This document shows positions 31,092 to 48,940 of a DNA stretch of 64,000 nt, piece by piece; position 1 is the stretch's first letter; the number at the start of each line of letters is the position of its first letter. The stretch lies in NCBI RefSeq assembly GCF_053078305.1, contig NZ_CP166879.1; one strand, written 5' to 3'. The position numbers and the translations under genes were made by a program. The notes beneath the pieces were generated by a model. It made no database searches. It worked only from the letters and a program-made list of their open reading frames with translations, and was not told the DNA's origin.

Positions 31092-31281
31092 ACTGCAGGC
31101 GCTGCGTCAGGCGCGCCTTGATTTATTAACCGGTAAACGGGTGGTGTCTGTCCAGAAAGATGGTCGCAGAATTGAATATACGGCGGCCTCTCTGGATGAG
31201 CTTAACCGTGCGATCAATGATGCTGAGTTGGTACTGGGGACAACCCGCCGTCGCCGTCGTCCGCTGGGAGTGAGGTTATGA
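31075..31281 (+). CDS. W: Head-tail joining protein gpW
   Basis: 68 aa in the lambda W position, with a basic C-terminus. Confidence 0.8.
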   Translation: MVTVAELQALRQARLDLLTGKRVVSVQKDGRRIEYTAASLDELNRAINDAELVLGTTRRRRRPLGVRL

Positions 31282-32098
31282 AACGAACGCCTGTCCTGAT
31301 TGATGTGAACGGCGTTCCGCTTCGGGAGAGCCTAAGCTACAACGGGGGCGGCGCAGGATTTGGCGGGCAAATGGCAGAGTGGTTGCCACCCTCGCAGAGT
31401 GCCGATGCGGCCCTGCTGCCCGCGTTGCGTCTGGGGAATGCCCGTGCAGATGATCTGGTGCGCAATAACGGAATAGCGGCCAATGCGGTGGCCCTGCATA
31501 AGGATCACATTGTCGGGCATATGTTTCTGATTAGCTACCGTCCGAACTGGCGCTGGCTGGGGATGCGGGAGACCGCGGCAAAAAGTTTTGTCGATGAGGT
31601 GGAGGCGGCCTGGTCAGAATACGCAGAAGGGATGTTTGGTGAGATCGACGTGGAAGGGAAACGCACGTTTACGGAATTTATCCGTGAAGGTGTGGGCGTT
31701 CATGCGTTTAACGGCGAAATCTTTGTGCAGCCGGTCTGGGATACGGAGAGCACGCAACTGTTTCGTACGCGTTTTAAAGCCGTGAGTCCGAAACGGGTGG
31801 ACACGCCAGGACACGGTATGGGGAACCGTTTTCTGCGGGCCGGTGTGGAGGTCGATCGATATGGTCGTGCCGTTGCGTACCATATCTGTGAGGATGATTT
31901 TCCTCACTCCGGGAGTGGACGATGGGAACGGATCCCGCGTGAACTTCTCACCGGGCGTCCGGCCATGCTGCATATTTTCGAGCCGGTGGAGGACGGGCAG
32001 ACCCGTGGGGCCAATCAGTTTTACAGCGTCATGGAACGGCTGAAGATGCTCGATTCCCTGCAGGCAACACAGCTTCAGTCGGCCATTGTTAAAGCCAT
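31278..32098 (+). pseudogene. B: Portal protein gpB, 5' part (about 273 codons), interrupted by island insertion
   Basis: Lambda B-like up to ...TQLQSAIVKA, then 17 unrelated codons and a stop at 32150. Confidence 0.9.
32091..32098. repeat. attL core (AAAGCCAT)
   Basis: Identical octamer at 43930-43937. TATG follows 1 nt downstream at both junctions. Confidence 0.7.
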
Positions 32099-32227
32099 TT
32101 ATGTCTATCATCTCCCCGTAGTTGTCCGCATCGTTCGCCAACTCCACTGAAACCCTTGCTGCGGCTGGAATGTCGTTTTCCATACTTTTGATGACCGTTC
32201 ATCACACTTCCAGGTTTTCGCGGTTTT

Positions 32228-32280
32228 GTGTATTGCAATGTGTATTGCAAATTGGCGATCGGGATGGGTGTGTATTGCAA
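32228..32280. repeat. GTGTATTGCAA repeats (candidate integrase arm-type sites, left arm)
   Basis: Three copies at 32228-38, 32240-50 and 32270-80. Two more lie at 43835-57 near the other end. Confidence 0.5.
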
Positions 32281-32298
32281 ATCTCTTGAGGGCTGTTA

Positions 32299-33540
32299 AT
32301 GGCTATTGAAAACAAACTCAGTGACAAACTGTTAAAGAGTCTTGTCGGAAAACGGCAGGACAAACAAAAAACAATAGCGGATGGGCGCGGGTTGTCTGTG
32401 CGTGTAAGCATGGTTGGGGGGATCAGCTTTGTTTTTTACTATCGTCTTGGTGGCAGGGAATCCCCTCCGGTATGGCTTACACTTGGGCGCTATCCTGATA
32501 TGTCTCTTGCAACAGCCAGGCGCATGCGTGATCAGTGCCGTGAGTGGCTGGCTGAAAATCTGGACCCCCGCAGGCAAATAAAACTTGCCGCCGAAAAAAC
32601 CATGCAACCAGTGACCGTAAGGGATGCGCTGTTTTACTGGTACGACAATCACGCCACAACAGCCAGAAAAGAGCATGAATATTTAATAAAACGATTTGAA
32701 AAGCATATCTTCCCCTATATCGGTGATATGGCTATAGAACAGTGCAAATTACACACATGGCTTGCCGTCTTTGACAGGATCAAAAAAAATGCGCCTGTTA
32801 TGTCTGGTGCAATTTTTCTTGATATCAAACAGGCGTTGCGTTTTTGTCGCGTCAGGCAATACATCGCGTGCGATCCCTTTGGCGATATTAACGTAAGTTA
32901 TGTCGGGCGCTCATCCGGTATAAGGGATCGCGTTCTTAATATCAATGAAACAGCGGATGTATGGTCTTATGCTTACGGTAATAATTTGCTGACACTGTCA
33001 TCAATACATAACAGAAGAATAATGGTTATCTGCCTGGTGTTTGGTTGCCGTCAGCAGGAGGCGAGGTTATCCACATGGGACGAATGGGATTTAAAAAACT
33101 GGGTATGGACAGTCCCAAAAGAGCACAGCAAAAACAAGGAGGCCATAGTAAGGCCTGTTCCTGACGGCATAAAACAATGGCTCGTTAATCTTTACGCAGA
33201 AACAAAAAATCGCGGTTATGTTGTCGGTTGTGCTTTGCAAAGGGCGACAATAACAGGGGCTGCAAACAGAATATGCAGGCGTCTTGGTCATGATATTAAT
33301 GGCTTGTGGTGCATACATGATTTCAGGCGCACATTTTCCACTGCGCTTAATGATATGGGGGCGGATCCTTATATTGTCGAACTTCTTTTAGGTCATAAAG
33401 TGAAAGGGGTTGCCGGTGTTTACAATAAAAGCAGGCATATAAAGAAAAAACTTGAGGTGCTTAATATGTGGGTTAATTACCTTAATACGATAGCAGGATT
33501 TAACAACAACGTTATCGAGCTTAATAAAGAGGTGGTGTGA
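32299..33540 (+). CDS. int: P4-type tyrosine integrase
   Basis: 413 aa. N-terminal KLSDKLLKSL...DGRGLSVRV...FVFYYRLGG (DUF4102-like arm-binding domain). C-terminal HDFRRTFST...LLGHKV..VAGVYN. Confidence 0.9.
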   Translation: MAIENKLSDKLLKSLVGKRQDKQKTIADGRGLSVRVSMVGGISFVFYYRLGGRESPPVWLTLGRYPDMSLATARRMRDQCREWLAENLDPRRQIKLAAEKTMQPVTVRDALFYWYDNHATTARKEHEYLIKRFEKHIFPYIGDMAIEQCKLHTWLAVFDRIKKNAPVMSGAIFLDIKQALRFCRVRQYIACDPFGDINVSYVGRSSGIRDRVLNINETADVWSYAYGNNLLTLSSIHNRRIMVICLVFGCRQQEARLSTWDEWDLKNWVWTVPKEHSKNKEAIVRPVPDGIKQWLVNLYAETKNRGYVVGCALQRATITGAANRICRRLGHDINGLWCIHDFRRTFSTALNDMGADPYIVELLLGHKVKGVAGVYNKSRHIKKKLEVLNMWVNYLNTIAGFNNNVIELNKEVV

Positions 33541-33541
33541 T

Positions 33542-33799
33542 ATGGCAATTTATTCTCTTGTTGATGAAAACGATTTGCGCACAATGAAGGACATTGATCG
33601 GTTCATTCGTGAAAAAGAGTGCATAGCACTTACCACGCTGGCAAACTCAACACGCTGGAAAATGGAGCAGGCAGGTAAATTCCCGCGACGTATCAAGATC
33701 GGTGAACGTGCGGCAGGGTATCGACTTTCAGAGGTTCAGGCATGGATCCGTGGTGAGTGGCATCCTGGATGGAAACCTGGAAAAACAAAACAGCAATAA
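33542..33799 (+). CDS. alpA: AlpA-family regulator/excisionase
   Basis: 85 aa with ...STRWKMEQAGKFPRRIKIGERAAGYRLSEVQAWI, the AlpA/Vis-type HTH. Directly after int. Confidence 0.75.
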   Translation: MAIYSLVDENDLRTMKDIDRFIREKECIALTTLANSTRWKMEQAGKFPRRIKIGERAAGYRLSEVQAWIRGEWHPGWKPGKTKQQ

Positions 33800-33812
33800 C
33801 CAGTAAATAACG

Positions 33813-33834
33813 CCCCTCATCAAGAGGGGTTTTT
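33813..33834 (+). terminator. Intrinsic terminator after alpA
   Basis: CCCCTC-ATCAA-GAGGGG followed by T5. Confidence 0.6.
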
Positions 33835-33853
33835 GTCTATAGGGTAAAACGCG

Positions 33854-34432
33854 ATGAATAAAAATATTGCCGTGACGGGCAAGGGGTACGCTCGTCCAGT
33901 GAAAAAATTCTGTGATATTCGTGATCTTGTCGTTCTGCGCTTTGATGGTGTGAGCGTTCGCGTGGTGTATGTGAACGGCGATCCGTGGTTTGTTGCCGTT
34001 GACGTGTGCGCTGCGCTGGAAATTGTTGATCACAAGGTTGCGTTACGCCGTCTCGATGATGATGAAAAGGGGGAGTGTTTAATACCCACCCCAGGTGGAA
34101 ATCAAACAATGCGAACGGTATGCGAGTCAGGGTTCTACAAACTAATCGCCAGAAGTCGGAAAGCTGTTACTCCTGGCACGTTCGCCCGTCGTTTCAGTAA
34201 CTGGGTATTCAGAAATGTGATACCAGGTATCAGAAAAACGGGGGCTTATGGTATCCCGTGGGGGGCATTACAGGATTTTTCCCGCCGTAAAGAGCAATAT
34301 CAAATAAGTGCCAGCGAGAAGGGGAGGGAGCTACAGGCATGTAAGCGCAAAAAACGTGAACTGGAGGAAGAAGAAAAAAGGCTGATACGTGAATATCAGC
34401 CTGAGTTTTACTTTGGTGAGCGTATTCAGTAA
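33854..34432 (+). CDS. BRO-N domain protein (antirepressor-like)
   Basis: ...LRFDGVSVRVVYVNGDPWFVAVDVCAALEI...GGNQTMRTVCESGFYKLIARSR, a Bro-N pattern. Confidence 0.65.
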   Translation: MNKNIAVTGKGYARPVKKFCDIRDLVVLRFDGVSVRVVYVNGDPWFVAVDVCAALEIVDHKVALRRLDDDEKGECLIPTPGGNQTMRTVCESGFYKLIARSRKAVTPGTFARRFSNWVFRNVIPGIRKTGAYGIPWGALQDFSRRKEQYQISASEKGRELQACKRKKRELEEEEKRLIREYQPEFYFGERIQ

Positions 34433-34770
34433 CCACACGCGGTGCTGATTATACGGTACATCGTGTTAACCGAGAAGCTACCCACCAGCAAGGCAAAATC
34501 TTCTGCTAAAAAATGACATATGGCCAGTCGTCCGGAAAGCATGAAATTTTACAAAAATGGAAAATGAAGATTTTTATTGTGCTGGTGGGTAAAAACAAAA
34601 AGCGCCCCGTTGCCGGAGCGCCCTTGTGAACAATTAACCTGCTGCGAAAAAATTGGATCAGTGCAGGGAAATTATATCAACTGTGTGAAGAAGCGCCACA
34701 ATTGCCAGTTTAGCTTTGCGGCGAACGCGTCAATAAAGAATATTCTTTCTTTAAATTCTGTTTGTGTATT

Positions 34771-34800
34771 TTTTCGTAGTTTTTCGTAGTTTTTCGTAAG
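34771..34800. repeat. Three tandem 10-bp repeats TTTTCGTAGT
   Basis: Exact 10-bp periodicity. The same CTACGAAA half site forms a palindrome at 43442-43458. Confidence 0.6.
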
Positions 34801-34895
34801 GAGAAAGAGCGGCGCGTATGCACCGCTAAGGAGTTTATTTTCATGACTTATGCAGCTTTCAATCTTAGCACCGCCGTAGCTGGTGGACAAGGCTA

Positions 34896-35123
34896 TCAGC
34901 CAGGCGGTCGGTTTTTAGTGGCTTTTAACCGCCGTGGGTATTTCTCGACAAAATCTTCAAGGGCAAATTTTTCTGGTGGCACTAAGCGCGGCGCTGGTGG
35001 TGGTATTTTTGTTCTGGTTAGTTCTTCCTCAAGTCTGGCGCAGGCTTCTAACTGCCTTTGCCGGATGATTTCATCATCTTGCGTTTGCGTGTCTTGTATT
35101 GGTGATAGTGTGTTGTTGGTCAT
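34896..35123 (-). CDS. Hypothetical protein (second gene of the leftward regulatory operon)
   Basis: 75-aa ORF downstream of the RHH gene. Confidence 0.4.
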   Translation of the reverse strand: MTNNTLSPIQDTQTQDDEIIRQRQLEACARLEEELTRTKIPPPAPRLVPPEKFALEDFVEKYPRRLKATKNRPPG

Positions 35124-35180
35124 GATACTGCCCTGTAAAGCAATGCGCCGGAGTACCTCACGCCACGGCGCTGATAGTGA

Positions 35181-35486
35181 TTATTCTGATTCTTGGGTCT
35201 TGCGACGCTGGAGTTCTTCGCGTGCAACGGTGACAAGTTGCCCGATTTCTTCCGCTGCTTTGATGCCGATTTGTTCGACCTTAGCCAGAGCATCCAGTGA
35301 AGACACAAGGGGATTTTCTCCGCTGCCTTCTGCCTGGCGGCGGGCGATTTCACCGCGCATGGCGGTTACTATGAATCCGGCGTTGCTTTCACCGTCCAGT
35401 TTTACGGATTCCATGCCTTCAATAACATCATGCGGGATCCGAGCTGTCAGTGATTGTGATTTTGCGTTTTTTGAACCTGTAGCCAT
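35181..35486 (-). CDS. Ribbon-helix-helix (Arc/CopG-like) regulator
   Basis: ATG at 35486 with RBS GAGAGGA. N-terminal KSQSLTARIPHDVIEGMESV beta-strand/helix pattern. Divergent from the rightward operon. Confidence 0.55.
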   Translation of the reverse strand: MATGSKNAKSQSLTARIPHDVIEGMESVKLDGESNAGFIVTAMRGEIARRQAEGSGENPLVSSLDALAKVEQIGIKAAEEIGQLVTVAREELQRRKTQESE

Positions 35487-35507
35487 CTGTAATCCTCTCA
35501 ATGAAAG

Positions 35508-35576
35508 TGTAAGACAATATACACATAAAAAGTCTTACATAAAAGCATTGACATGTAAGCCACCTATAAATAAAGT
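35508..35576. promoter_or_regulatory. Operator palindrome plus rightward promoter
   Basis: TGTAAGAC (35508-15) and GTCTTACA (35532-39) form an inverted repeat. TTGACA (35548-53), 17 bp, TAAAGT (35571-76). Confidence 0.45.
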
Positions 35577-35805
35577 TACTTACACCTTGTTAATGCAAGG
35601 TGCAGAAACGACGAAACCCGGCAGTGCGCTAACACTAACCGGGCTTCTAACCACCAACGATAGAAAGCGTATCGAGGTAGCTATGAGAAATCATACCACA
35701 CACCCGCAAGGGCGGGACTCGCACAACCTGAATAAATACATCTGGCGTTTTCTGGCCCGAAAAAACCAGTTGATCGCCAGTGTCGAAAATAGCTATGATT
35801 CCCGC

Positions 35806-35883
35806 GCACCTCATAAAACGGGTGCCGGGATTGGCGTCCTGGGCAAAACTGAAGCGCATAACACGCGCCCCGCGTGTTTTTTT
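35806..35883 (+). ncRNA. C4 / IsrK / P4-CI-like small RNA element in the island leader
   Basis: GCACC-TCATAAAACG-GGTGC; CCGGGA-TTGGCG-TCCTGG; ACACGCG-CCC-CGCGTGT plus T7. Loop 2 is complementary to ACGCCAA at 35963-69. Homologous to 6877-6801. Confidence 0.55.
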
Positions 35884-36045
35884 GTGCCGCATAGTCACAC
35901 CTTATCAATGGTGGGCTGTACGGGGGCGGAGCAATCCGCGCCGGTTTCTTCAGTGTCCGGTTACGCCAACCCTGTACAGTCCGCCACCAGCGAAATTGGC
36001 GTTTCCGGTGGCGGTTATCTTAACCACACTGAGGAGGCTGCCAAC

Positions 36046-36237
36046 ATGGCTACTATCCCTACCCTTGTACATTCTCAAACCGCCTTTCTCTGGCGCTTTA
36101 TCATCTTTGGCGCGTCAGACCATCAAATCATCCACGTCACCGCCTGGACGGAACGCGAAGCGCGTAGCCGTTGCCCGTCCGGTTGTGTTGCTGTATTCGC
36201 CGCCCGTATTCGTCAGGAGGTGTGCCATGTGCAATAA
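36046..36237 (+). CDS. Icd-like small protein (host cell-division inhibitor family of P1/P4-type elements)
   Basis: RBS GAGGAGG. MATIPTLVHSQTAFLWRF...VTAWTEREARSRCPSG... Has the same first 7 codons as the helper rha gene. Confidence 0.5.
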   Translation: MATIPTLVHSQTAFLWRFIIFGASDHQIIHVTAWTEREARSRCPSGCVAVFAARIRQEVCHVQ

Positions 36238-36484
36238 AACCACACCGGACGCAGCCGCCGCGCTCACTACACTGATGCACGCGCTGATTGATATTTCTGT
36301 TATTGCTGACAGGGCGCATAAGCACGCCACCAGTGAAACAGAATATGCCGGGGCTTTCGTTCCTCATTCGCTGGCGGTTATGCAACTTAGTGCTGATATG
36401 GCGCTGAATGAGGCCAAAGCTATCCTGATTTCTGATTGTGAAAATGGGGGGGGGTTATGCGTGATGATCGTTTTAATGCCCTGA
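36227..36484 (+). CDS. Hypothetical protein
   Basis: 85 aa, RBS AGGAGG. Overlaps the icd-like stop. Confidence 0.4.
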   Translation: MCNKTTPDAAAALTTLMHALIDISVIADRAHKHATSETEYAGAFVPHSLAVMQLSADMALNEAKAILISDCENGGGLCVMIVLMP

Positions 36485-36678
36485 AACAGGAGTTTGATGG
36501 TGCGCCTGATGATGCAGGTGATGCGCTTTCGTCAATATCCGAACTGATAAGAGTGGCCTTTTTCTTACTTGGCACGAAAGAATATAAATCAACTGGAATA
36601 GACGTACTGAATATTACTGCTGATTATGCGGAATATATGGCAGAAGTGGATTTAAGAAAGATAACGGACAGGGGGTAA
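36457..36678 (+). CDS. Hypothetical protein
   Basis: 73-aa coupled ORF. Confidence 0.4.
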   Translation: MRDDRFNALKQEFDGAPDDAGDALSSISELIRVAFFLLGTKEYKSTGIDVLNITADYAEYMAEVDLRKITDRG

Positions 36679-36679
36679 T

Positions 36680-36913
36680 ATGCGTGATATTTACCACGAA
36701 ACAATAGACCGCGCATTTAGTGCCCTTGCTTACGCTGAAGGTATGTACGAAATATTGCAAATGTGTCTGGAAACATTTGGCGATAATGAGCGTGATGTAA
36801 AGAAGGCGCGGATTATTAAATCACTGATAACTCTCCTTGAACCTGTAATAACAGAGTTGCAGGAAATAGACTTATTGCACGACAGATATAACGAACAGCA
36901 CACCGGAGAATAA
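36680..36913 (+). CDS. Hypothetical protein
   Basis: 77-aa coupled ORF. Confidence 0.4.
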   Translation: MRDIYHETIDRAFSALAYAEGMYEILQMCLETFGDNERDVKKARIIKSLITLLEPVITELQEIDLLHDRYNEQHTGE

Positions 36914-36918
36914 AAATA

Positions 36919-37218
36919 ATGAAACTTAAATATCCTGGCTTAACTGCCAGTGGCAACACTCACCCTAAATTTACGCGCGGTGATATTTACCGCGACCAGT
37001 ACGGCGGCACGGTAATGATTAAGGGCGTGGCGGGACGGTGCGTAACTTACCGCCGTGAAGGCTACGAATATGATTGCGTGATGCCTGTTTATCAGTTCCG
37101 GCGTGATTTTTCTCTGGTACAGACCGCGCCGCATAACGTGCCCACCAGCAACGCCAGGGCACGGGCAAACATCCAGAAGCTGAAAACCATGATTAACGGA
37201 TTCAGGGGTAAAAAATGA
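36919..37218 (+). CDS. Hypothetical protein
   Basis: 99-aa coupled ORF. Confidence 0.4.
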   Translation: MKLKYPGLTASGNTHPKFTRGDIYRDQYGGTVMIKGVAGRCVTYRREGYEYDCVMPVYQFRRDFSLVQTAPHNVPTSNARARANIQKLKTMINGFRGKK

Positions 37219-38624
37219 AACTGGCACCGAACGTAAAACGATTACCGAAAGATAAATACACCGAAGCGGTTATTTTTGCGGGTATTGATGCTCACTCATT
37301 CGCAGAGCATTACATCATTGCACAGGCCAAAAAAGCAGGCGATCCAGTCCCTCCCGTTTATCTGGGGCGTTATCAGTTAAGCGAACTGGATAACCTCCAG
37401 ATTGTTGATGATGGGCGATACAGGGCGACGGTGATACGCGCCGGAAATATTGAAGAGCCGCAGCTGTTAACCATCGCCACGAAACTGGCGAGCGCCGGAG
37501 TCCAGGAGGCGCGGCTACTTTCTGAAAATTTCGAATTGCTGGAGGAATGGAGCGACCAGCTTCCACGGCTTAGGGAGGCATGGGAACGCGGGGAAAGCCT
37601 GGTCATGAAAAAAATTCCCCAGCGAAAAACCACGCTACCGATGAGCGTTGGATCTACCGGATACGACACACAGCTTGATTACGTGGTAAAGGGGATTATT
37701 CCGGCATCGTCGCTTTGCAGCATATACGGGGCGAGCGGTTCCTATAAATCATTCCTTGCCGGATCGTGGGCGTGTCACGTTTCCACGGGCCGCCAGTGGG
37801 GAGGCCGCAGGGTGGCGCATGGCGCTGTTCTCTATGTGGTTGGTGAAGGCGGTATCGGCGTTCCGCGTCGTGTAAAAGCCTGGGAGGTTGTGCACGGTGA
37901 GCAGGTGAAAAATCTGTATCTGGTAAACCGTCCCATCTTTCCGGCTGTCCCGCTTGATGTTGATGAACTGGTTATTGCTGCCAGTCAGGTGGAGAGGGAA
38001 ACGGGTAAACCTGTTCGCATGATTATTCTGGACACGCTGGCGCGTTGCTTTGGCGGCAATGATGAAAATGACTCCCGCGACATGGGGGCATTTATCCGTG
38101 GTTGTGACGAGCTTAAACGGCGCACAGGGGCTACGGTGCTGGTGGTTCACCATTCCGGCAAGGATGAAACAAAGGGGGCGCGTGGTTCCAGTGCATTTCG
38201 TGCATCACTGGACGCTGAATACCGGATACGCAGGGAGGACGCAGGAAGCGAAGCGCTGGTTATCTCATGCACCAAAATGAAGGACGCGGAGGAACTCAAA
38301 GAGGCTGCCTATGATTTGCGGGTGGTGGAGCTTTTTACCGACGCTGACGGGGAGTTAATTACGTCGCTGGTGGTGGTGGATAAGCCGCGCCCTCCCGTTG
38401 AACTGGAGCGCATCGAGGAGGCAGGCAACAAGACGGAAAACCATACCGCGCTATGGGGGTGCATCCGTTCACGCACACAGAACGGCGACAAGTGCACGAT
38501 CCCGCTGTTACGTGACGATATGAAAAAGCTGGGGTATGACACAAAACACCTTAAACGATGGTTAGCCAAACTGGAAAAAGACGACGTGATCTACATTGAC
38601 GGTGATGATGTAGGACCACTGTAA
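37215..38624 (+). CDS. Replication protein with RepA/AAA_25-type RecA-fold ATPase domain
   Basis: Walker A-like YGASGSYKSF, MIILDTLARCFGG..ENDSRDM and LVVHHSGKDETKGARGSSA motifs typical of RepA-like helicases. Iterons follow. Confidence 0.65.
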   Translation: MKLAPNVKRLPKDKYTEAVIFAGIDAHSFAEHYIIAQAKKAGDPVPPVYLGRYQLSELDNLQIVDDGRYRATVIRAGNIEEPQLLTIATKLASAGVQEARLLSENFELLEEWSDQLPRLREAWERGESLVMKKIPQRKTTLPMSVGSTGYDTQLDYVVKGIIPASSLCSIYGASGSYKSFLAGSWACHVSTGRQWGGRRVAHGAVLYVVGEGGIGVPRRVKAWEVVHGEQVKNLYLVNRPIFPAVPLDVDELVIAASQVERETGKPVRMIILDTLARCFGGNDENDSRDMGAFIRGCDELKRRTGATVLVVHHSGKDETKGARGSSAFRASLDAEYRIRREDAGSEALVISCTKMKDAEELKEAAYDLRVVELFTDADGELITSLVVVDKPRPPVELERIEEAGNKTENHTALWGCIRSRTQNGDKCTIPLLRDDMKKLGYDTKHLKRWLAKLEKDDVIYIDGDDVGPL

Positions 38625-41269: not shown

Positions 41270-41280
41270 CGGGGGATTCT

Positions 41281-42042: not shown

Positions 42043-42048
42043 CATAAG

Positions 42049-42071: not shown

Positions 42072-42073
42072 AC

Positions 42074-42140: not shown

Positions 42141-42248
42141 TTTTTCGGGTGCTGGTGGTGGTTTTGTTGTTCGCTCTATCTCTATGAATAAAAAGGGAAA
42201 GATAAAACCAATACACCAACCTGAAACATTACTTAAGTGGGGATATTG

Positions 42249-42791
42249 ATGAAATCGCACCTGATGAACAAAAAAAACATGGCGCAAAGCTGCCGTGTAA
42301 GTGCGACAGCGTTCGACAAGTGGGGAGTGACTCCCGTTGAACGTAAAGGACGCGAGGCTTTTTACGATGTTGCCAGCGTGATAGACAATCGGGTAAGCAA
42401 TGCAATTAACCAGGTTACAAACGACAAAGGCGAGATTGATGATGATGAACTCTTACGAGTCAGGATCAGATTACTGACCGCCCAGGCTGAGGCGCAGGAA
42501 CTTAAAAACGAGCGCGATCGCGGTGACGTAATTGATACTGAGTTTTGCCTGTACGCGCTTTCAAAGCTGGCGAGTCAGATTTCTTCAATCATGGACAGTT
42601 TGCCGCTTACCATGCAAAGGCGCTTCCCGCAGATTACTCCCGCTATGCTGGATGGGCTTAAAAGGGAAGTGGTTAAAGCCTGTAATGCCAGTGCCACAGT
42701 TGCCGACAACCTCCCGAAGATACTGGCTGATTACCTGATGGAAACTACCGGAGACGTACCGGAGAAGTTGCTACAGAAGAAAGGCGAGTAA
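42249..42791 (+). CDS. Nu1-family terminase small subunit paralogue (TerS')
   Basis: N-terminal MNKKNMAQSCRVSATAFDKWGV resembles lambda Nu1 (VNKKQLADIFGASIRTIQNW). The C-terminal FCLYALSKLASQISSIMDSLPLTMQRRFPQI..ILADYL parallels the helper TerS. Start 42237, 42249 or 42264. Confidence 0.8.
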   Translation: MKSHLMNKKNMAQSCRVSATAFDKWGVTPVERKGREAFYDVASVIDNRVSNAINQVTNDKGEIDDDELLRVRIRLLTAQAEAQELKNERDRGDVIDTEFCLYALSKLASQISSIMDSLPLTMQRRFPQITPAMLDGLKREVVKACNASATVADNLPKILADYLMETTGDVPEKLLQKKGE

Positions 42792-42940
42792 CAGACGCGC
42801 AATTATTGAACAAAAGTAAGGCCCGACATGAAATCACCCAAAAATGCCTTTTTCATGCGTTTGTATGTCTGACCTTTTACGGTTTCGATATTATAAAAAA
42901 CAAATAGTTACGCTCGAGAGGTACCGACACGCATTTTTCA

Positions 42941-43014
42941 GGAAAATTTTCATAAACAGATAAAAACCGCGAGGTCGCCGCCCCGTAACGGGCCATAATT
43001 CCAGGAAGGACCCG
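42941..43014 (-). promoter_or_regulatory. Island cos site 3 (inverted, diverged flanks)
   Basis: Reverse complement reads GGGTCCTTCCTGGAATTATGGCCCGTTACG-GGGCGGCGACCT-CGCGGTTTTTATCTGTTTATGAAAATTTTCC. The core lies at 42972-42983. Confidence 0.8.
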
Positions 43015-43047
43015 ACGACACCAGGCTATCAGAACGATGAGGGCACA

Positions 43048-43329
43048 ATGACAGAAGCCGAACTACTGGGATTAATCCGCTACGTTACCGGAATCAGCCA
43101 GCAGCATGACGAACAGGCCACGCAGCCGGACAGCGTGACCGCTGAAAATTATGCGCGTGTTGTTGCTGAGGTGATGCGCCGTGATGGTATCCAGCTTAAT
43201 GATGCAGATATGCGCGACATACGGATCCGCGTTCTTGAAATGCTGGCCTACCGTCGCCGCGTGCAGACGTACAGGGAAAAAGCAAAAATAACGTACCAGT
43301 GGAAGAAGCCGGAGCGATTACGGCGGTAA
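43048..43329 (+). CDS. Hypothetical protein
   Basis: 93-aa ORF, last gene before the right arm. Confidence 0.4.
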   Translation: MTEAELLGLIRYVTGISQQHDEQATQPDSVTAENYARVVAEVMRRDGIQLNDADMRDIRIRVLEMLAYRRRVQTYREKAKITYQWKKPERLRR

Positions 43330-43441
43330 CTTGCTGATATTCCCGATAACGCAAAATTGCGCTCTGTCCTAACCCGTTGATATTTTCGGGAACAGCCAAC
43401 GGCTGAGGCCGGAACAACGATTATCTTTCAGATAGTCAGAG

Positions 43442-43458
43442 CTACGAAATTTTCGTAG
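43442..43458. repeat. Palindrome CTACGAAA-T-TTTCGTAG
   Basis: Perfect 8+1+8 inverted repeat of the half site that is repeated at 34771-34800. Confidence 0.6.
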
Positions 43459-43724
43459 TTTAATTACTCGCCAGTTTATCGTTAACTCGTTGATATTTTC
43501 GGTAACCTCAATTTGAGGAGATCGGAAACATAACCCTTCACATTCTGAATGGTTATAATGACCACTCAGACCATCAAGGCAACCATAACGAACATCGTTA
43601 CGGTTGGAGCTTTTACCCCACTGGGGGGAAGGTGCACATCTGGATCATCATTACCGTGATCAAGGGTATGTAAAACCCACCAGCCTGATTAACTGTTAAC
43701 CGGAAAAAAGCCAGGTAGCCAATC

Positions 43725-43748
43725 TCGATATGGGGATCCCCATATCGA
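43725..43748. repeat. 24-bp perfect palindrome TCGATATGGGGATCCCCATATCGA
   Basis: Read directly from the sequence, in the ORF-free right arm. Confidence 0.6.
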
Positions 43749-43834
43749 CATTAACGCCCCCTAGAACTGCGCATATCTGCATATAAAAACATCCACCAGC
43801 TTTATGACGGATGCCGCTCATCTGATAAATAATC

Positions 43835-43857
43835 GTGTATTGCAATGTGTATTGCGA
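43835..43857. repeat. GTGTATTGCAA repeats (right arm)
   Basis: GTGTATTGCAA at 43835-45 and GTGTATTGCGA at 43847-57. Confidence 0.5.
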
Positions 43858-43929
43858 CTCCTTTAAACGATAGGTTTGAGCATTCGTAATGTACTGTTTT
43901 TAAATTTTATTTTTTCCTGTCTTTTCATA

Positions 43930-44709
43930 AAAGCCATGTATGCAGCGACGATTGAAAGTGAACTTGATACCGAAAAGGCCTTTGAATATATCGCCGGTGC
44001 GCCGCAGGGGCAGAAGGATAATCCGCTTATTAATATTCTGGATAAGTTCTCCACCTGGTATGACACGAATATCGTGACGCTGGGCGGTGTCAAAATTCCG
44101 CACCTTTTCCCCGGTGATGATCTGAAACTTCAGACCGCGCAGGATTCAGACAATGGATTTTCGGCGCTTGAACAGGCGCTGCTGCGGTATATCGCCGCCG
44201 GTCTTGGCGTTTCCTACGAACAGTTGTCCCGTGATTACTCGAAGGTCAGTTATTCAAGTGCCCGCGCCTCCGCCAATGAGTCGTGGCGCTATTTTATGGG
44301 ACGACGAAAATTTATTGCAGCCCGGCTGGCCACGCAGATGTTTTCCTGCTGGCTGGAAGAGGCACTTCTTCGGGGGATTATCCGTCCGCCACGGGCACGT
44401 TTTGATTTTTATCAGGCGCGTTCAGCCTGGTCGCGGGCAGAGTGGATTGGCGCAGGAAGAATGGCCATTGACGGGCTCAAGGAGGTCCAGGAATCAGTGA
44501 TGCGCATTGAGGCCGGACTGAGCACGTATGAGAAAGAGCTGGCGCTGATGGGTGAGGATTATCAGGACATTTTCCGCCAGCAGGTCAGGGAATCCGCAGA
44601 GCGGGAAAAAGCCGGACTCTCACGTCCGGTGTGGATAGCGCAGGCGTATCAGCAGCAGATAGCAGAGAGCCGCAGGCCGGAAGAGGAGACAACACCACGT
44701 GAGACGTAA
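43930..44709 (+). pseudogene. B: Portal protein gpB, 3' part
   Basis: KAMYAATIESELD...LLRYIAAGLGVSYEQLSR...ARASANESWRYFMGRRKF...GAGRMAIDGLKEVQE is collinear with the recalled lambda B C-terminal half. Codons upstream of 43930 are island DNA. Confidence 0.9.
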
Positions 44710-46204
44710 TCTTTCACACATTATTGCCGCAGCATTCAATGAACCGCTGCTTCTGGAGCCCGCCTATGCGCGGGTTTTCTTTTGCGCGCTCGGGCGCGAG
44801 ATGGGGGCAGCAAGTCTTTCGTTACCACAACAGCAGGTACAGCTTGATGCTCCCGGGATGCTGGCTGAAACGGACGAGTACATGGCCGGAGGTAAACGAC
44901 CGGCCCGTGTTTACCGGGTGGTGAACGGTATTGCGGTACTGCCGGTGACCGGCACGCTGGTGCACCGGCTGGGTGGTATGCGGCCATTTTCCGGAATGAC
45001 AGGCTATGACGGCATTGTTGCCTGTCTTCAGCAGGCAATGGCGGACACCTCTGTCCGGGGCGTACTGCTGGATATTGACAGTCCGGGCGGGCAGGCCGCC
45101 GGTGCGTTTGACTGCGCTGACATGATTTACCGCCTCCGGCAGCAGAAGCCGGTCTGGGCACTGTGTAATGACACGGCCTGTTCTGCGGCCATGCTGCTGG
45201 CGTCGGCCTGCTCCCGACGGCTGGTTACCCAGACATCCCGTATCGGCTCCATTGGCGTGATGATGGGCCATGTCAGCTATGCCGGTCATCTGGCGCAGGC
45301 CGGAGTGGATATCACGCTGATTTATGCCGGGGCGCATAAGGTGGATGGCAATCAGTTTGAAGCGTTGCCGTCAGAGGTTCGCCAGGACATGCAGCAGCGG
45401 ATTGATGCGGCGCGCCGGATGTTTGCCGAAAAAGTGGCGATGTATACGGGGCTGTCTGTGGAAGCTGTCACGGGGACAGAGGCTGCCGTTTTTGAAGGTC
45501 AGTCCGGTATTGAAGCCGGGCTGGCGGATGAATTAATCAATGCGTCGGATGCCATCAGTGTGATGGCTGCGGCGTTGAACACACATGATACAGGAGGCAC
45601 TATGCCGCAATTAACTGCAACGGAAGCCGCCGCGCAGGAGAACCAGCGAGTGATGGGGATCCTGACGTGTCAGGAAGCGAAAGGACGTGAACAGCTTGCC
45701 ACGATGCTGGCAGGACAACAGGGCATGAGCGTTGAACAGGCCCGGGCGATTCTGGCCGCGGCGGCACCACAGCAGCCGGTGGCATCCGCGCAGAGTGAAG
45801 CCGATCGCATTATGGCGTGTGAAGAAGCTAAAGGTCGTGAACAACTGGCGGCAACGCTGGCGGCGATGCCGGATATGACGGTGGAAAAAGCCCGCCCGAT
45901 CCTGGCGGCTTCACCGCAGGTGGATGCCGGCCCCTCACTCCGTGATCAGATTATGGCTCTGGATGAGGCAAAAGGGGCTGAGGCGCAGGCTGAACAGCTG
46001 GCTGCCTGCCCGGGAATGACAGTGGAGAGCGCCCGGGCTGTGCTGGCTGCGGGATCAGGTAAGGCAGAACCGGTTTCTGCATCAACAACCGCCCTGTTTG
46101 AACATTTCATGGCGAACCATTCACCGGCAGCCGTGCAGGGTGGCGTGTCACAGACGTCGGCAGACGGTGATGCGGACGTGAAAATGCTCATGGCCATGCC
46201 ATGA
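44699..46204 (+). CDS. C: Head protease/scaffold gpC (S49 ClpP-like) with nested Nu3-type C-terminus
   Basis: FNEPLLLEPAYARVFF..., SPGGQAAGAFDCAD and RIGSIGVMM are collinear with recalled lambda C. The C-terminal scaffold module is triplicated. Confidence 0.9.
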   Translation: MRRNLSHIIAAAFNEPLLLEPAYARVFFCALGREMGAASLSLPQQQVQLDAPGMLAETDEYMAGGKRPARVYRVVNGIAVLPVTGTLVHRLGGMRPFSGMTGYDGIVACLQQAMADTSVRGVLLDIDSPGGQAAGAFDCADMIYRLRQQKPVWALCNDTACSAAMLLASACSRRLVTQTSRIGSIGVMMGHVSYAGHLAQAGVDITLIYAGAHKVDGNQFEALPSEVRQDMQQRIDAARRMFAEKVAMYTGLSVEAVTGTEAAVFEGQSGIEAGLADELINASDAISVMAAALNTHDTGGTMPQLTATEAAAQENQRVMGILTCQEAKGREQLATMLAGQQGMSVEQARAILAAAAPQQPVASAQSEADRIMACEEAKGREQLAATLAAMPDMTVEKARPILAASPQVDAGPSLRDQIMALDEAKGAEAQAEQLAACPGMTVESARAVLAAGSGKAEPVSASTTALFEHFMANHSPAAVQGGVSQTSADGDADVKMLMAMP

Positions 46205-46240
46205 AGTCAGTGCTGACCATCAATATGAGGTTTTTACAAT

Positions 46241-46588
46241 ATGGTAACGAAAACCATCACTGAACAACGTGCGGAAGTACGTATTTTTGCCGGTAATGAT
46301 CCGGCTCATACCGCCACAGGCAGCAGCGGGATTTCTCAGGCAACACCGGCACTGACGCCCCTGATGCTGGATGAAGCCAGCGGGAAACTGGTGGTCTGGG
46401 ACGGACAGAAAGCCGGTAATGCGGCTGGCATACTGGTACTGCCGCTTGAAGGCACAGAGACGGTGCTGACGTATTACAAGTCGGGGACCTTTGCGACGGA
46501 GGCAATCCGCTGGCCTGAAAGTGTGGATGAACACAAAAAGGCCAACGCCTTTGTCGGCACAGCCCTGAGTCACGCGGCGCTGCCGTAA
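46241..46588 (+). CDS. D: Head decoration protein gpD
   Basis: NDPAHTATG...TPLMLDEASGKLVVWDG...YYKSGTF resembles lambda D. Confidence 0.85.
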   Translation: MVTKTITEQRAEVRIFAGNDPAHTATGSSGISQATPALTPLMLDEASGKLVVWDGQKAGNAAGILVLPLEGTETVLTYYKSGTFATEAIRWPESVDEHKKANAFVGTALSHAALP

Positions 46589-46645
46589 CACGTTATCAGG
46601 CCACCGCGTTGGCCTGACTGATTTCTGAATGAAAGGAACTGATTT

Positions 46646-47674
46646 ATGGGATTGTTTACGACCCGCCAGTTACTCGGTTATACCGAACAAAAAGTGAAAT
46701 TTCGTGCGCTGTTTCTGGAGCTGTTTTTCCGCCGTACGGTGAATTTCCACACCGAAGAGGTGATGCTGGATAAAATTACCGGAAAAACGCCGGTGGCAGC
46801 CTATGTCTCCCCGGTTGTTGAAGGAAAAGTGCTGCGTCATCGTGGTGGTGAAACCCGCGTGTTGCGTCCGGGCTACGTCAAGCCGAAACACGAATTTAAT
46901 TACCAGCAGGCGGTGGAGCGCCTTCCCGGTGAAGATCCGGCGCAACTGAACGACCCGGCCTACCGTCGTCTGCGTATCATCACTGATAACCTCAAACAGG
47001 AAGAGCATGCCATTGTCCAGGTGGAGGAAATGCAGGCGGTGAATGCCGTGCTGTATGGCAAATACACCATGGAAGGGGAGCAGTTTGATACTGTCGAGGT
47101 GGATTTCGGGCGCTCTGAAGGAAATAACATTGAGCAGGCTGACGGTAAAAAATGGTCTGAGCAGGACCGTGATACGTTTGATCCGACGCATGATATTGAC
47201 CTCTACTGCGATCAGGCCAGCGGTCTTGTGAATATCGCCATTATGGACGGTACGGTCTGGCGTCTGCTGAATGGCTTTAAGTTGTTCCGCGAAAAACTGG
47301 ATGCCCGTCGCGGCTCAAATTCACAACTCGAAACAGCAGTGAAAGACCTGGGGTCGGTGGTGTCCTTCAAGGGGTATTACGGCGATCTGGCCATTGTGGT
47401 GGCGAAAACGTCTTATGTGGCAGAGGACGGTACCGAAAAACGTTATCTGCCGGAGGGCACGCTGGTCCTGGGAAATACGTCAGCGGAGGGCATCCGTTGC
47501 TATGGTGCCATTCAGGATGCGCAGGCGTTGTCCGAAGGTGTGGTGGCCTCTTCCCGTTATCCGAAACACTGGATGACCGTGGGCGATCCGGCCCGTGAAT
47601 TCACCATGACGCAGTCCGCGCCGCTGATGGTGCTGCCGGATCCGGATGAGTTTGTGGTGGTACAGGTGAAATAA
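46646..47674 (+). CDS. E: Major capsid protein gpE
   Basis: Collinear with recalled lambda E (PGYVKPKHE, VEEMQAVNAVLYGKYTM, RRGSNSQLETAVKDLG, GDPAREFTMTQSAPLM). Confidence 0.95.
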   Translation: MGLFTTRQLLGYTEQKVKFRALFLELFFRRTVNFHTEEVMLDKITGKTPVAAYVSPVVEGKVLRHRGGETRVLRPGYVKPKHEFNYQQAVERLPGEDPAQLNDPAYRRLRIITDNLKQEEHAIVQVEEMQAVNAVLYGKYTMEGEQFDTVEVDFGRSEGNNIEQADGKKWSEQDRDTFDPTHDIDLYCDQASGLVNIAIMDGTVWRLLNGFKLFREKLDARRGSNSQLETAVKDLGSVVSFKGYYGDLAIVVAKTSYVAEDGTEKRYLPEGTLVLGNTSAEGIRCYGAIQDAQALSEGVVASSRYPKHWMTVGDPAREFTMTQSAPLMVLPDPDEFVVVQVK

Positions 47675-47725
47675 TCCGGGAGCGGGGGCGAAATGCCCCC
47701 GTGTCTTTTTTCACAGGGGGCTGAG

Positions 47726-48109
47726 ATGGCAACAAAAGAAGAAAATCTGAATCGTCTTCGTCAACTGGCTGGTCTGCTGGGGCGCGAGGCGGATATGTCG
47801 GGGAGTGCTGCGGATATTGCTCTGCGTGTGTCTGAGTGGGAAGAGGAGCTTGCAGCTTCCCGGGAGGGCATTATGCACTCTGATGAGAGCGGGTCTGATC
47901 AAAATGACACAGACGATGGTGAGCAGTTGAACAACACGGATTCTCCGGATGATGTTAAAGCCGTCCGGGTACGGAAGTGCCTGCAAGTGATGGGGTATTG
48001 CCCGGAGACAGGTCGTCCCGTTGAGCTGGCGTTACGGGGTATGCGTGTTCTGGTGCCATCATCACTGGCAACGGCCATGATACAGCACGGAACGGCTGAA
48101 TATGCGTGA
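47726..48109 (+). CDS. FI: DNA-packaging protein FI
   Basis: MATKEENLNRLRQLAGLLGREADMSGS...ALRVSEWEEEL with an acidic linker, lambda FI-like. Correct position. Confidence 0.7.
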   Translation: MATKEENLNRLRQLAGLLGREADMSGSAADIALRVSEWEEELAASREGIMHSDESGSDQNDTDDGEQLNNTDSPDDVKAVRVRKCLQVMGYCPETGRPVELALRGMRVLVPSSLATAMIQHGTAEYA

Positions 48110-48455
48110 TTTTCAGAATGCCTTTGATGCTGCCCTCGCCGGGGTGGACAGTACGATCGTTGAAGTGATGGGGATCCGTGCGCAGTTCACCTCCGGTGCA
48201 CAGCGTGGCGGCGAAGTTCAGGGGGTTTTTGACGATCCGGAGTCGCTGGGTTTTGCCGGTGGCGGGGTCCGTATTGAAGGAAGCAGCCCGTCATTATTTG
48301 TGCGGACGGATACGGTGCGTGCTGTGCGGCGTGGTGACACGCTGACCATTAACGGCGAGATGTTCTGGGTGGATCGTGTTTCTCCGGATGACGGGGGCAG
48401 CTGTTATCTCTGGCTCAACCGTGGGCAACCACCCGCTGTTAACCGGCGACGATAA
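48102..48455 (+). CDS. FII: Head-tail connector FII
   Basis: ...GVFDDPESLGFAGGGVRIEGSSPSLFVRTD..RRGDTLTI...FWVDRVSPDDGGSCYLWL..PPAVNRRR is near-identical to recalled lambda FII. Confidence 0.9.
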   Translation: MRDFQNAFDAALAGVDSTIVEVMGIRAQFTSGAQRGGEVQGVFDDPESLGFAGGGVRIEGSSPSLFVRTDTVRAVRRGDTLTINGEMFWVDRVSPDDGGSCYLWLNRGQPPAVNRRR

Positions 48456-48470
48456 ACGCAGGGTGAAATT

Positions 48471-48940
48471 ATGGCGATAAAAGGGCTTGATCAGGCGATT
48501 GATAATCTGAGCCGGGTTCGTAAAAACGCCATTCCTGCTGCTTCAGCAATGGCCATTAACCGCGTGGCCACAACGGCAATAAATCAGTCTGCGTCACAGG
48601 TTGCCCGTGAGACAAAGGTACGCCGGAAACTGGTAAAGGAAAGGGCCAGGCTGAAAAGGGCCACGGTAAAAAATCCGCAGGCCAGAATCAAAGTTAACCG
48701 GGGGGATTTGCCTGTAATCAGGCTGGGTAATGCGCGGGTTGTCCTGTCCCGACGCAGGCGACGTAAAAAGGGGCAGCGTTCATCCCTGAAAGGTGGCGGC
48801 AGTGTGCTTGTGGTGGGTAACCGTCGCATTCCCGGCGCGTTTATTCAGCAACTGAAAAATGGGCGGTGGCATGTCATGCAGCGTGTGGCCGGGAAAAACC
48901 GTTACCCCATTGATGTGGTAAAAATCCCGATGGCGGTGCC
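48471..48940 (+). pseudogene. Z: Tail protein gpZ, truncated at about codon 157 by the Mu-like insertion
   Basis: MAIKGLDQAIDNLSR...YPIDVVKIPMAVP matches recalled lambda Z. The frame then reads VTR-stop in foreign DNA. Confidence 0.85.

What the first reader, a model, noticed from the sequence alone, without database searches (positions are those of the whole stretch)
31278..48940. Three-layer nesting leaves the helper doubly crippled
Seen: within 18 kb of one head-tail operon there are two independent interruptions, portal by the island and Z by the Mu-like phage. Inference: the portal lesion is reversible through excision, while the Z lesion is not. If the Mu-like insertion is recent, the island is stranded in a helper that can no longer make infectious tails. 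It would then need another lambdoid phage with the same cos and a compatible portal and TerL. This would select for the island's generic cosN and for a conserved portal attB.
Basis: inference. Interest (0 to 1): 0.5.

Follow-up and report, generated by a model that had tools for sequence, protein, structure and literature searches.

The report
Satellite and Mu inside one prophage
An E. coli lambda-like prophage carries a known kind of satellite island in its portal gene and a Mu-like phage in its tail gene Z, but the island is not stranded, because what is very probably the same strain holds a second copy in another prophage with an intact Z.

Summary
The portal gene is split at 32091-32098 / 43930-43937 by an 11.84-kb island. 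Tail gene Z is cut after 48940 by the left end of a Mu-like prophage of about 40 kb.

The island is not a new kind of element. [quoted passage not shown] Its attL/attR closely match a catalogued member.

Precise excision would restore a 530-residue portal. The Mu insertion is a simple insertion with a 4-bp duplication. It is absent from 5,426 complete E. coli genomes, so it is strain-specific. All other helper genes in the window are full length.

The inference that the island is stranded fails. A draft assembly matching the window without a mismatch holds a second island copy. That copy differs at 2 bases and sits at the same portal site in a second lambdoid prophage, whose Z, U, V and G are full length. 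The resident helper also still encodes terminase, portal and head genes upstream of the Mu, so only tail functions are at risk.

The idea of abandoned HE-PICIs awaiting a new helper is already published. This is an ordinary accident on a known system, and interest is low.

The parts
1450..3007 (-). Integrase and excisionase of the lambdoid helper prophage, at its left end next to chromosomal rspA/rspB
   Evidence: tblastn with the L003 proteins gives 99.8% and 100% identity over their full length.
28450..28532 (+). Helper cos core (cosQ, cosN at 28487-28498, start of cosB). Its own cosB type, with CCGGACATG-like repeats, follows up to about 28680.
28682..31281 (+). Helper TerS (28682-29191), TerL (29163-31091) and W-like head-tail joining gene (31075-31281), all full length
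31278..32098 (+). Portal gene, N-terminal part. The ORF runs on into the island and stops at 32150.
   Evidence: Phage_portal_2 profile positions 2-241. Alignment to an intact portal.
32091..32098 (+). attL identity block AAAGCCAT
32099..43937 (+). HE-PICI satellite island, 11,839 bp, co-oriented with the helper late operon
32227..32249 (+). Doubled TGTATTGC motif (putative arm-type site), starting 132 bp downstream of the attP centre
   Evidence: The position matches PMC10111431.
32299..33799 (+). Integration zone: tyrosine integrase (32299-33540) and AlpA (33542-33799)
   Evidence: Pfam. The integrase is 99% identical to WP_000963723-type integrases and scores 467 bits against the 11capE integrase.
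33854..35991 (+). Bro/immunity zone: Bro-N protein (33854-34432), isrK-like RNA (35806-35882) and C4-like RNA (35904-35991). A YlcI-like ORF lies on the minus strand at 35181-35501.
36919..39485 (+). Replication zone: DUF4222 (36919-37218), RepA/AAA_25 helicase (37215-38624), a gene of unknown function (38695-39078) and SSB (39075-39485)
39376..39768 (+). PerC-family regulator gene. The domain begins at residue 41 of the ORF.
40214..42042 (+). Island late zone: gpE-like major capsid protein (40214-41269), gpD-like decoration protein (41281-41616) and a 137-residue protein (41629-42042) that resembles the C-terminal scaffold part of head proteases
42067..42149 (+). Island cos(+), with cosN at 42104-42115, followed by an island-type cosB
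42237..42791 (+). Island Nu1-like TerS. Its C-terminal 115 residues are 48% identical to the helper TerS; its N-terminal part does not align with it.
42800..43015 (-). Second, inverted cos, with cosN at 42972-42983 and a phage-21-type cosB on its low-coordinate side
43834..43856 (+). Doubled TGTATTGC motif, ending 81 bp upstream of the attP centre
43930..43937 (+). attR identity block AAAGCCAT
43938..44709 (+). Portal gene, C-terminal part
44699..48455 (+). Helper head genes C (S49 protease/scaffold), D, E, FI and FII, all full length
48471..48940 (+). Tail gene Z, truncated after codon 156 of 192. TGCC at 48937-48940 is the target-site duplication.
48941..64000 (+). Left 15 kb of a Mu-like prophage, co-oriented with the late operon: c-like repressor (49246-49764, minus strand), ner (49982-50227), MuA-like gene (50184-52292), MuB-like gene (52364-53296) and onward

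Best explanation
The window holds a lambdoid prophage with phage-21-type head genes, integrated next to rspB. It carries two unrelated inserts.

**Insert 1 is a helper-embedded PICI** of site group B:Phage_portal_2:241. A site-specific tyrosine integrase placed it in the portal gene, co-oriented with the late operon.

The following steps are inferred from the anatomy and from the published 11capE experiments:
1. On induction the composite excises and replicates.
2. Late transcription runs from terS, terL and W into the island's int and alpA.
3. Int and AlpA excise the island within AAAGCCAT and restore the portal ORF.
4. The island replicates with its own helicase and SSB.
5. It makes its own gpE-like shell, gpD-like decoration protein and scaffold-like protein.
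6. It is packaged from its own cos by its own TerS working with the helper TerL.
7. It borrows the portal, protease, connectors and tails.

**Insert 2 is an accidental, strain-specific transposition** of a Mu-like phage of about 40 kb into codon 157 of Z.
- It truncates gpZ.
- It puts about 40 kb between the late promoter and genes U to J.
- It makes the helper genome far too long to package from cos to cos.

The helper is therefore dead as a phage. It can probably still supply terminase and head parts.

The island is not trapped. What is very probably the same strain has a second copy, 2 SNPs apart, in the lambda-type portal of another prophage with intact tail-proximal genes. That prophage could supply Z and tails in trans.
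For: **The island is an HE-PICI.**
- att site and Pfam position.
- Close match of its attL and attR to the catalogued Eco14761.12.B_Phage_portal_2_241.
- Doubled motif ending at -81 and starting at +132: compared.
- Integrase scores 467 bits against the 11capE integrase.
- Four-zone gene order with isrK/C4 RNAs.
- The same integrase lies next to a split portal in 60 of 5,426 complete genomes.

**Reversibility.** The reconstructed portal has 530 residues and is 98.7% identical to an intact one.

**The helper is otherwise intact**.

**The Mu insert.**
- Conserved terminus found at many different loci.
- Both junctions with a TGCC duplication.
- A 39,968-bp relative whose depositors annotated a 4-bp duplication.
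- 0 of 5,426 genomes share the junction.

**Second island copy and second helper:**

**The island's own packaging specificity:**
Against: - No induction, excision, packaging or transfer was measured, so every functional step is inferred.
- That the window comes from the strain of IMG genome 2617271340 rests on sequence identity and on the unique junction. It does not rest on a record name.
- The left 21 kb of the second helper could not be read. Whether it is inducible is unknown, and its closest relatives in complete genomes lack the early region.
- The effect of losing the last 36 residues of gpZ is unknown.
- The J region in the draft record L008 is broken into several ORFs. Another record of that assembly (L006) shows 11 indels against the window, so this cannot be interpreted.
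Confidence: 0.8

Rival explanations
1. The Mu insertion has stranded the island in a dead helper. The island now depends on an incoming lambdoid phage with the same cos and a compatible portal and TerL. This dependence selects for a generic cosN and a conserved portal attB.
For: - Z is truncated and the Mu is strain-specific.
- cosQ-cosN is nearly identical between the island and several lambdoid phages.
- The same integrase is found in both 21-type and lambda-type portals.
- The paper itself notes abandoned HE-PICIs in truncated helpers.
Against: - A second island copy and a second prophage with full-length Z, U, V and G are present in the matching assembly.
- The resident helper still encodes cos, TerS, TerL, portal, C, D, E, FI and FII upstream of the Mu.
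- The island has its own TerS and cosB.
- A single recent accident in one strain cannot have shaped features shared by hundreds of islands.
Confidence: 0.12
2. Landing pad only. The portal gene is merely the integrase's target. The embedding prophage is not the functional helper, so damage to it has no bearing on the island.
For: - Both relatives examined among the 60 complete genomes sit in prophages that lack the early region.
- The island's replication and late zones are about 90% identical to those of chromosomal PICIs at roxA-phoQ.
- Neither island cos carries the resident prophage's cosB type, although other islands do carry it.
Against: - The island is co-oriented with the late operon.
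- The island TerS C-terminal half is 48% identical to the resident TerS.
- The cos core is 90% identical to the resident one.
- The 11capE composite showed ordered excision and replication.
Confidence: 0.2
3. Assembly artefact. One or both junctions are chimeric joins between repeated phage sequences.
For: Lambdoid and Mu-like sequences are repeated in such genomes.
Against: - Both Mu junctions occur in separate IMG/VR records, with a matching 4-bp duplication and an in-frame continuation of Z.
- The island junctions reproduce a catalogued att site with its flanking motifs.
Confidence: 0.02

Closest known systems
HE-PICI, site group B:Phage_portal_2:241 (Tommasini, Mageeney and Williams 2023, PMC10111431), for example Eco14761.12.B_Phage_portal_2_241
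   Same: - Same portal codon and the same AAAGCCAT identity block.
- The attR flank is identical and the attL flank differs at two bases.
- Same doubled TGTATTGC motif at the same spacing.
- Same integrase clade and the same int-alpA-Bro-replication-late order.
- Co-oriented with the late operon.
   Different: - 11,839 bp here against 11,970 bp there.
- A mosaic backbone: RepA-type helicase rather than a primase, a PerC gene, and a second inverted cos.
- Here the helper also carries a Mu-like prophage.
- What is very probably the same strain has two copies in two types of portal gene.
EcCICFT073-type cos PICIs of E. coli (Fillol-Salom et al. 2018 and 2019, PMC6092414 and PMC6739421)
   Same: - int-alpA start.
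- cos packaging by lambdoid helpers.
- Two cos sites with conserved cosQ/cosN but a cosB unlike the phage's.
- A capsid gene in the late zone.
   Different: - EcCICFT073 lies in the chromosome, lacks terS and uses Rpp to retarget the phage TerS.
- This island has a full Nu1-like TerS. The 137-residue protein just upstream of its cos had no match at all among solved-structure sequences.
- It lies inside the helper.
Mu-like prophages inserted in lambdoid (Stx) prophages of STEC, for example LC727881 and LC727895
   Same: The same Mu-like family (96-97% identity), inserted inside a lambdoid prophage. The depositors annotated a 4-bp duplication.
   Different: The insertion site differs. Here it is in Z of a prophage that also holds an HE-PICI.
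Defective prophage pool of E. coli O157 (Asadulghani et al. 2009, PMC2669165)
   Same: Lambdoid prophages with genetic defects co-reside with related prophages. According to the paper's abstract, many are still induced, packaged and even transferred through inter-prophage interactions.
   Different: That study did not involve satellites. No experiment exists for this strain.

Membership tests
HE-PICI (helper-embedded PICI) | Integrated inside a prophage late gene, which it disrupts without carrying a replacement copy of the gene's end | tested here: met
   The portal is split at profile position about 241. The island side of attL runs into a stop at 32150, with no portal-like replacement sequence.
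HE-PICI (helper-embedded PICI) | Key island genes co-oriented with the interrupted late operon | tested here: met
   int, alpA, the helicase gene, the capsid gene and terS all lie on the + strand, as do terS, terL, the portal gene and C to Z.
HE-PICI (helper-embedded PICI) | Integrase in the 11capE-related clade (the paper's cut-off is 400 bits) | tested here: met
   467 bits and 53% identity to the NRG857c 11capE integrase. No phylogenetic tree was built.
HE-PICI (helper-embedded PICI) | Doubled motif tgTGTATTGCantgTGTATTGCa in two co-oriented copies, 81 +/- 2 bp upstream and 132 +/- 2 bp downstream of the attP centre | tested here: met
   Half-sites lie at -100 and -88 (the motif ends at -81) and at +132 and +144 in the reconstructed attP.
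HE-PICI (helper-embedded PICI) | AlpA gene next to int, and the four zones Integration, Bro, Replication and Late | tested here: met
   Pfam Phage_AlpA, Bro-N, AAA_25, SSB, Phage_cap_E, HDPD and Phage_Nu1 in that order, with isrK and C4 RNAs in the Bro zone.
HE-PICI (helper-embedded PICI) | Induction-dependent excision after composite replication, followed by transfer in helper-derived particles | not testable with these tools
   This needs mitomycin C induction with att-site quantification and transduction assays.
Mu-like transposable phage | Left-end gene order of c repressor (divergent), ner, transposase A and ATPase B | tested here: met
   HTH_Tnp_Mu_1, HTH_35, Mu-transpos_C and Phage-MuB_C domains in that order.
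Mu-like transposable phage | The same termini at unrelated loci in different genomes, flanked by a short target duplication | tested here: met
   The left end TGTAACCAGG... lies next to ypdA, hyfF, yahO, torZ and other genes. TGCC is duplicated at both junctions. The duplication is 4 bp, as annotated in LC727881, not the 5 bp of Mu itself.
Mu-like transposable phage | Complete element of about 37-40 kb with a com/mom right end | tested here: inconclusive
   Only 15 kb lie in the window. A relative (L007) runs about 38.7 kb to com/mom-like genes. About 10.7 kb of the contig carrying L008 precede the right-end junction, but only the last 2.9 kb were read here.
Lambdoid helper prophage | cos, Nu1, A, W, B, C, D, E, FI, FII, Z in that order, together with early, lysis and integration modules | tested here: met
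   All are found full length apart from B and Z. U to I follow the Mu right end in L008, where the J region is fragmented.

The most novel reading that the evidence does not exclude
The island's second, inverted cos may be a swappable mimic of a helper cos.

In this PICI backbone, terS is flanked by two convergent cos sites. One has the island's own cosB. The other has a cassette that copies the cosB of one or another lambdoid phage type. Here the cassette is phage-21-like. In relatives it belongs to other types, including the cosB type of this window's own prophage.

If so, the island can be packaged either by its own TerS or by a helper's TerS. Swapping the cassette would then reset its helper range. 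That would bear on the question left open by Fillol-Salom et al. [quoted passage not shown]
Probability: 0.3. Interest if true: 0.45.

Novelty: new member of a known kind. Interest (0 to 1): 0.2.

Why it matters
This is a clear natural example of nested mobile elements: chromosome, then prophage, then a satellite and a transposable phage side by side. It shows that what very probably is one strain can carry the same helper-embedded satellite in two different portal genes, which fits recent movement between co-resident helpers.

It adds no new principle. Helper embedding, reversible gene disruption and abandoned satellites in decayed helpers are all published. Mu-like insertions in lambdoid prophages are already in GenBank.

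Its practical value is as a test strain. Heads could come from the Mu-damaged helper and tails from the second helper. That would allow a direct test of how far an HE-PICI depends on the prophage it sits in.

Tried and rejected
- **Exact-protein look-ups** of the Z::Mu fusion ORF and the portal::island fusion ORF found nothing on record.
- **Scans for the Z::Mu junction** in species-representative genomes and in metagenomes found nothing. Only IMG/VR held it.
- **Reading more of the second helper contig.** A 120-nt pattern returned the same stored piece. A Z-start pattern did bring in L237, seen only through list_loci. A terL pattern did not bring in the left 21 kb. Whether that prophage is complete remains unknown.
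- **An Rpp-like protein was considered.** The 137-residue protein upstream of cos had no match among PDB sequences. It resembles a protease/scaffold C-terminus instead.
- **The L001 island in terL** was considered as a member of the same family and rejected. Its integrase is only 24-27% identical, it lacks the doubled motif, and its att core is absent from the paper's att files. Only 2 of the 5 genomes with that integrase have it in terL.
- **A canonical 5-bp Mu duplication was considered.** Both junctions here, the junctions in L007 and the LC727881 annotation fit 4 bp better.
- **The promoter/terminator scan** of the region gave nothing decisive.
Full report
**What is in the window.** Bases 1 to about 1,400 are chromosomal (rspA/rspB). 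A lambdoid prophage follows. Its integrase, excisionase, cI-like and cro genes, replication genes, Q-like gene, tRNAs and lysis genes match the prophage of E. coli FHI_NMBU_10 (87% coverage at 96.5% identity). From cos onward the late genes are of the phage-21 type. They are 93-97% identical to phage 21, to the PhiR12 phages and to many E. coli prophages. No complete E. coli genome in RefSeq holds 80% or more of bases 28000-50000.

**Check of the portal interruption.** An uninterrupted portal gene (L002) aligns to the window up to 32103 and resumes at 43930. The shared sequence is AAAGCCAT[T/G]TATG. The N-terminal fragment covers Pfam Phage_portal_2 positions 2-241 and the C-terminal fragment covers 235-354. 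Removing one copy of the core restores a 530-residue ORF that is 98.7% identical to an intact portal, without gaps. A crossover inside AAAGCCAT would regenerate the wild-type K-A-M-Y codons.

**Gene content of the insert.** The 11,839-bp insert carries, all on the + strand:
- a tyrosine integrase and AlpA;
- a Bro-N protein and an isrK/C4 RNA pair;
- DUF4222, a RepA/AAA_25 helicase and SSB;
- a PerC-family regulator;
- a gpE-like capsid protein, 47% identical to the helper's E;
- a gpD-like decoration protein;
- a 137-residue protein resembling the scaffold end of head proteases;
- a Nu1-like TerS.

**What the island is.** A literature search found Tommasini, Mageeney and Williams 2023 (PMC10111431). 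That paper defines helper-embedded PICIs (HE-PICIs). These are PICI satellites integrated in, and co-oriented with, late genes of lambdoid helper prophages. The paper maps them to 14 sites and finds that their integrases form one clade.

Every sequence criterion is met here:
- The site is B:Phage_portal_2:241.
- The identity block is AAAGCCAT, as in the catalogued Eco14761.12.B_Phage_portal_2_241. The attR flank is identical and the attL flank differs at two bases.
- The doubled motif TGTATTGC..TGTATTGC, which the paper found only in HE-PICIs, ends 81 bp upstream of the attP centre and starts 132 bp downstream of it. These are exactly the published spacings.
- The integrase scores 467 bits against the founding 11capE integrase, above the paper's 400-bit cut-off.
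- The four-zone gene order with P4-like immunity RNAs is present.

The same integrase lies next to a split portal gene in 60 of 5,426 complete E. coli genomes. Two of them have 21-type portals (one is EC28). The rest match only from about 130 bp before the junction, as expected for a diverged portal. The one examined, SCEC020022, has lambda-type head genes. In both examples the host prophage lacks its early region. The island is therefore a new member of a published family and not a new kind of element.

**Check of the Z interruption.** Lambdoid similarity stops at 48936-48940. Mu-like similarity starts at 48940/48941 in more than 100 genomes, where the same terminus TGTAACCAGG... adjoins unrelated genes such as ypdA, hyfF, yahO and torZ. 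The Z ORF keeps 156 of 192 codons, covering Pfam Minor_tail_Z positions 1-157 of 190. Beyond it lie a divergent c-like repressor, ner, a MuA-like gene and a MuB-like gene, and about 12 kb more of Mu-like genes, 97-98% identical to prophages of STEC strains.

The right end lies outside the window. However, IMG/VR holds records from one isolate genome (taxon 2617271340) that match the window:
- L006 spans the left junction with 0 mismatches over 12.7 kb.
- L035 is 100% identical to the region around cos.
- L008 holds the complementary junction: Mu right end ...CGCGCTATA, then TGCC, then the remaining 36 codons of Z in frame, then full-length ORFs sized for U, V, G, T, H, M, L, K and I and a fragmented J region.

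This is a simple insertion with a 4-bp duplication (TGCC). The depositors of LC727881 annotated the same size of duplication for a 39,968-bp relative inside an Stx2c prophage. No complete E. coli genome, species-representative genome or metagenome contig shares the Z::Mu junction.

**State of the helper.** All other helper genes in the window are full length and 71-100% identical to intact homologues, most above 95%. They are int, xis, the cI-like gene, cro, the replication genes, the Q-like gene, holin, lysozyme, Rz, TerS, TerL, W, C, D, E, FI and FII. This fits a recent Mu insertion.

The consequences are inferred from established lambda and Mu biology:
- The composite is about 100 kb from cos to cos and cannot be packaged.
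- gpZ lacks its last 36 residues.
- Genes U to J lie about 40 kb further from the late promoter.
- Mu-type phages have no excision pathway, so the lesion is effectively permanent.
- Everything needed for DNA-filled heads lies upstream of the Mu and is untouched, once the island has excised from the portal gene.

**Is the island stranded?** It is not, at the level of the strain.

A cos-pattern scan brought in another record of the same IMG genome, UViG _000010, which is 54,130 bp long. Its piece L025 contains a second copy of the island.
- The two copies differ at 2 positions (window 38825 and 42169) in 11,839 bp.
- The second copy sits at the same portal site, but in a lambda-type portal whose flanks are 98.4% identical to SCEC020022.
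- There attL reads AAGGCGAT and attR reads AAAGCCAT. The paper lists several portal-site entries with heterologous cores of this kind.

A further piece of the same contig, L237, shows full-length FI, FII, Z (192 residues), U, V and G. That Z is 89% identical to the truncated one, U is 83% identical and FII is 68% identical. Lambda heads and tails assemble separately and join afterwards, and heads and tails of related lambdoid phages are known to join. Trans supply of Z or of whole tails is therefore plausible.

Two caveats apply. The left 21 kb of that contig could not be read, so whether the second helper is inducible is unknown. That the window comes from this IMG genome rests on sequence identity and on the unique junction.

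**Packaging anatomy.** cosN (GGGCGGCGACCT) occurs three times: in the helper at 28487 and in the island at 42104 (+) and 42972 (-). An 83-nt cosQ-cosN core in the island is 90% identical to the helper's.

The cosB sides differ:
- The helper has its own repeat type, CCGGACATG-like.
- The island's cos(+) has an island-type cosB next to the island terS.
- The inverted cos(-) has a phage-21-type cosB, like those of the AREA_492 and EC28 prophages.

The island TerS shares 48% identity with the helper TerS in its C-terminal 115 residues. No alignment was found in the N-terminal part, where Nu1 carries its DNA-binding domain. The island therefore does not need the same cos as a helper. It needs a TerL that accepts its TerS.

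Two cos sites in E. coli PICIs are already known from EcCICFT073, and their purpose was left open (PMC6739421). Convergent cos pairs occur in 38 of 119 IMG/VR loci that carry this cos variant. Their cosB sides fall into at least 8 clusters, and one cluster is the window prophage's own type. This suggests an exchangeable helper-type cassette. It is a lead and not a result.

**Verdict.** It is wrong where it matters most, because the island is neither stranded nor in need of an outside portal, TerL or cos. The general idea of abandoned HE-PICIs awaiting a new helper is already stated by Tommasini et al.. The arrangement is best read as a chance Mu hit on one of two helper-satellite composites in what is very probably one strain.

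Noticed in passing
window 42067-42149 (+) and 42800-43015 (-); also L001, L010, L011 and 38 IMG/VR loci: The island's terS is flanked by two convergent cos sites. The cosQ-cosN cores are conserved, but the cosB sides differ and look like exchangeable cassettes (at least 8 clusters). One cluster matches this window's own prophage cosB, and the window's inverted copy is phage-21-like. EcCICFT073 is known to have cos1 and cos2, and their purpose is unexplained.
   Followed up: partly
L025 (IMGVR_UViG_2617271340_000010, contig 21445-35136) and L237 (contig 37322-43139): A second copy of the island, differing at 2 bases, lies in a lambda-type portal of another prophage in the genome that matches the window. 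Its att cores are heterologous (attL AAGGCGAT, attR AAAGCCAT). That prophage has full-length FI, FII, Z, U, V and G.
   Followed up: partly
L001 7936-19809 (E. coli AREA_492, NZ_CP123335): A related island with the same late zone sits in terL (core CATATCTGGAC). Its integrase is only 24-27% identical to HE-PICI integrases, it lacks the doubled TGTATTGC motif, and its att core is not in the paper's att lists. Only 2 of the 5 complete genomes with this integrase have it in terL, so it may be an off-target event or a separate lineage.
   Followed up: partly
window 48937-48941 and L008 2929-2945; L007; LC727881: This Mu-like family seems to make a 4-bp target duplication (TGCC here) and to end in ...CTATA-3'. 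Mu itself makes a 5-bp duplication and ends in CA-3'.
   Followed up: partly
window 35020-43760 compared with L010 and L011 (roxA-phoQ locus): The island's replication and late zones are about 90% identical to those of chromosomal PICIs at roxA-phoQ, which have a different integrase module. The integration zone appears to be exchanged as a unit between chromosomal and helper-embedded satellites.
   Followed up: partly
window 39376-39768: The island carries a PerC-family regulator gene. From general knowledge, PerC/Pch homologues regulate the LEE virulence island in EPEC and EHEC.
   Followed up: no
window 41629-42042: A 137-residue island protein matches the C-terminal (scaffold) part of head-maturation proteases (phrog_53). 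Together with the island's own gpE-like and gpD-like genes, this suggests that the island builds or resizes its own shell.
   Followed up: no
window 6689-6877 (-) and 35806-35991 (+): isrK plus C4 RNA pairs (P4-type immunity RNAs) occur both in the helper's early region and in the island. The helper also carries DicF, sok, STnc100 and three tRNA genes.
   Followed up: no
window 48941-52292: The Mu-like prophage is co-oriented with the lambdoid late operon. Antiterminated late transcription could therefore read into ner, A and B past the Mu repressor's control. This is pure inference.
   Followed up: no
L006, L008 and L035 (IMG/VR records of taxon 2617271340): L006 shows 11 indels and no mismatches against the window. 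By contig coordinates, the records holding L006 and L035 overlap by about 3 kb. The J region in L008 is split into several ORFs, which could reflect such indels.
   Followed up: no
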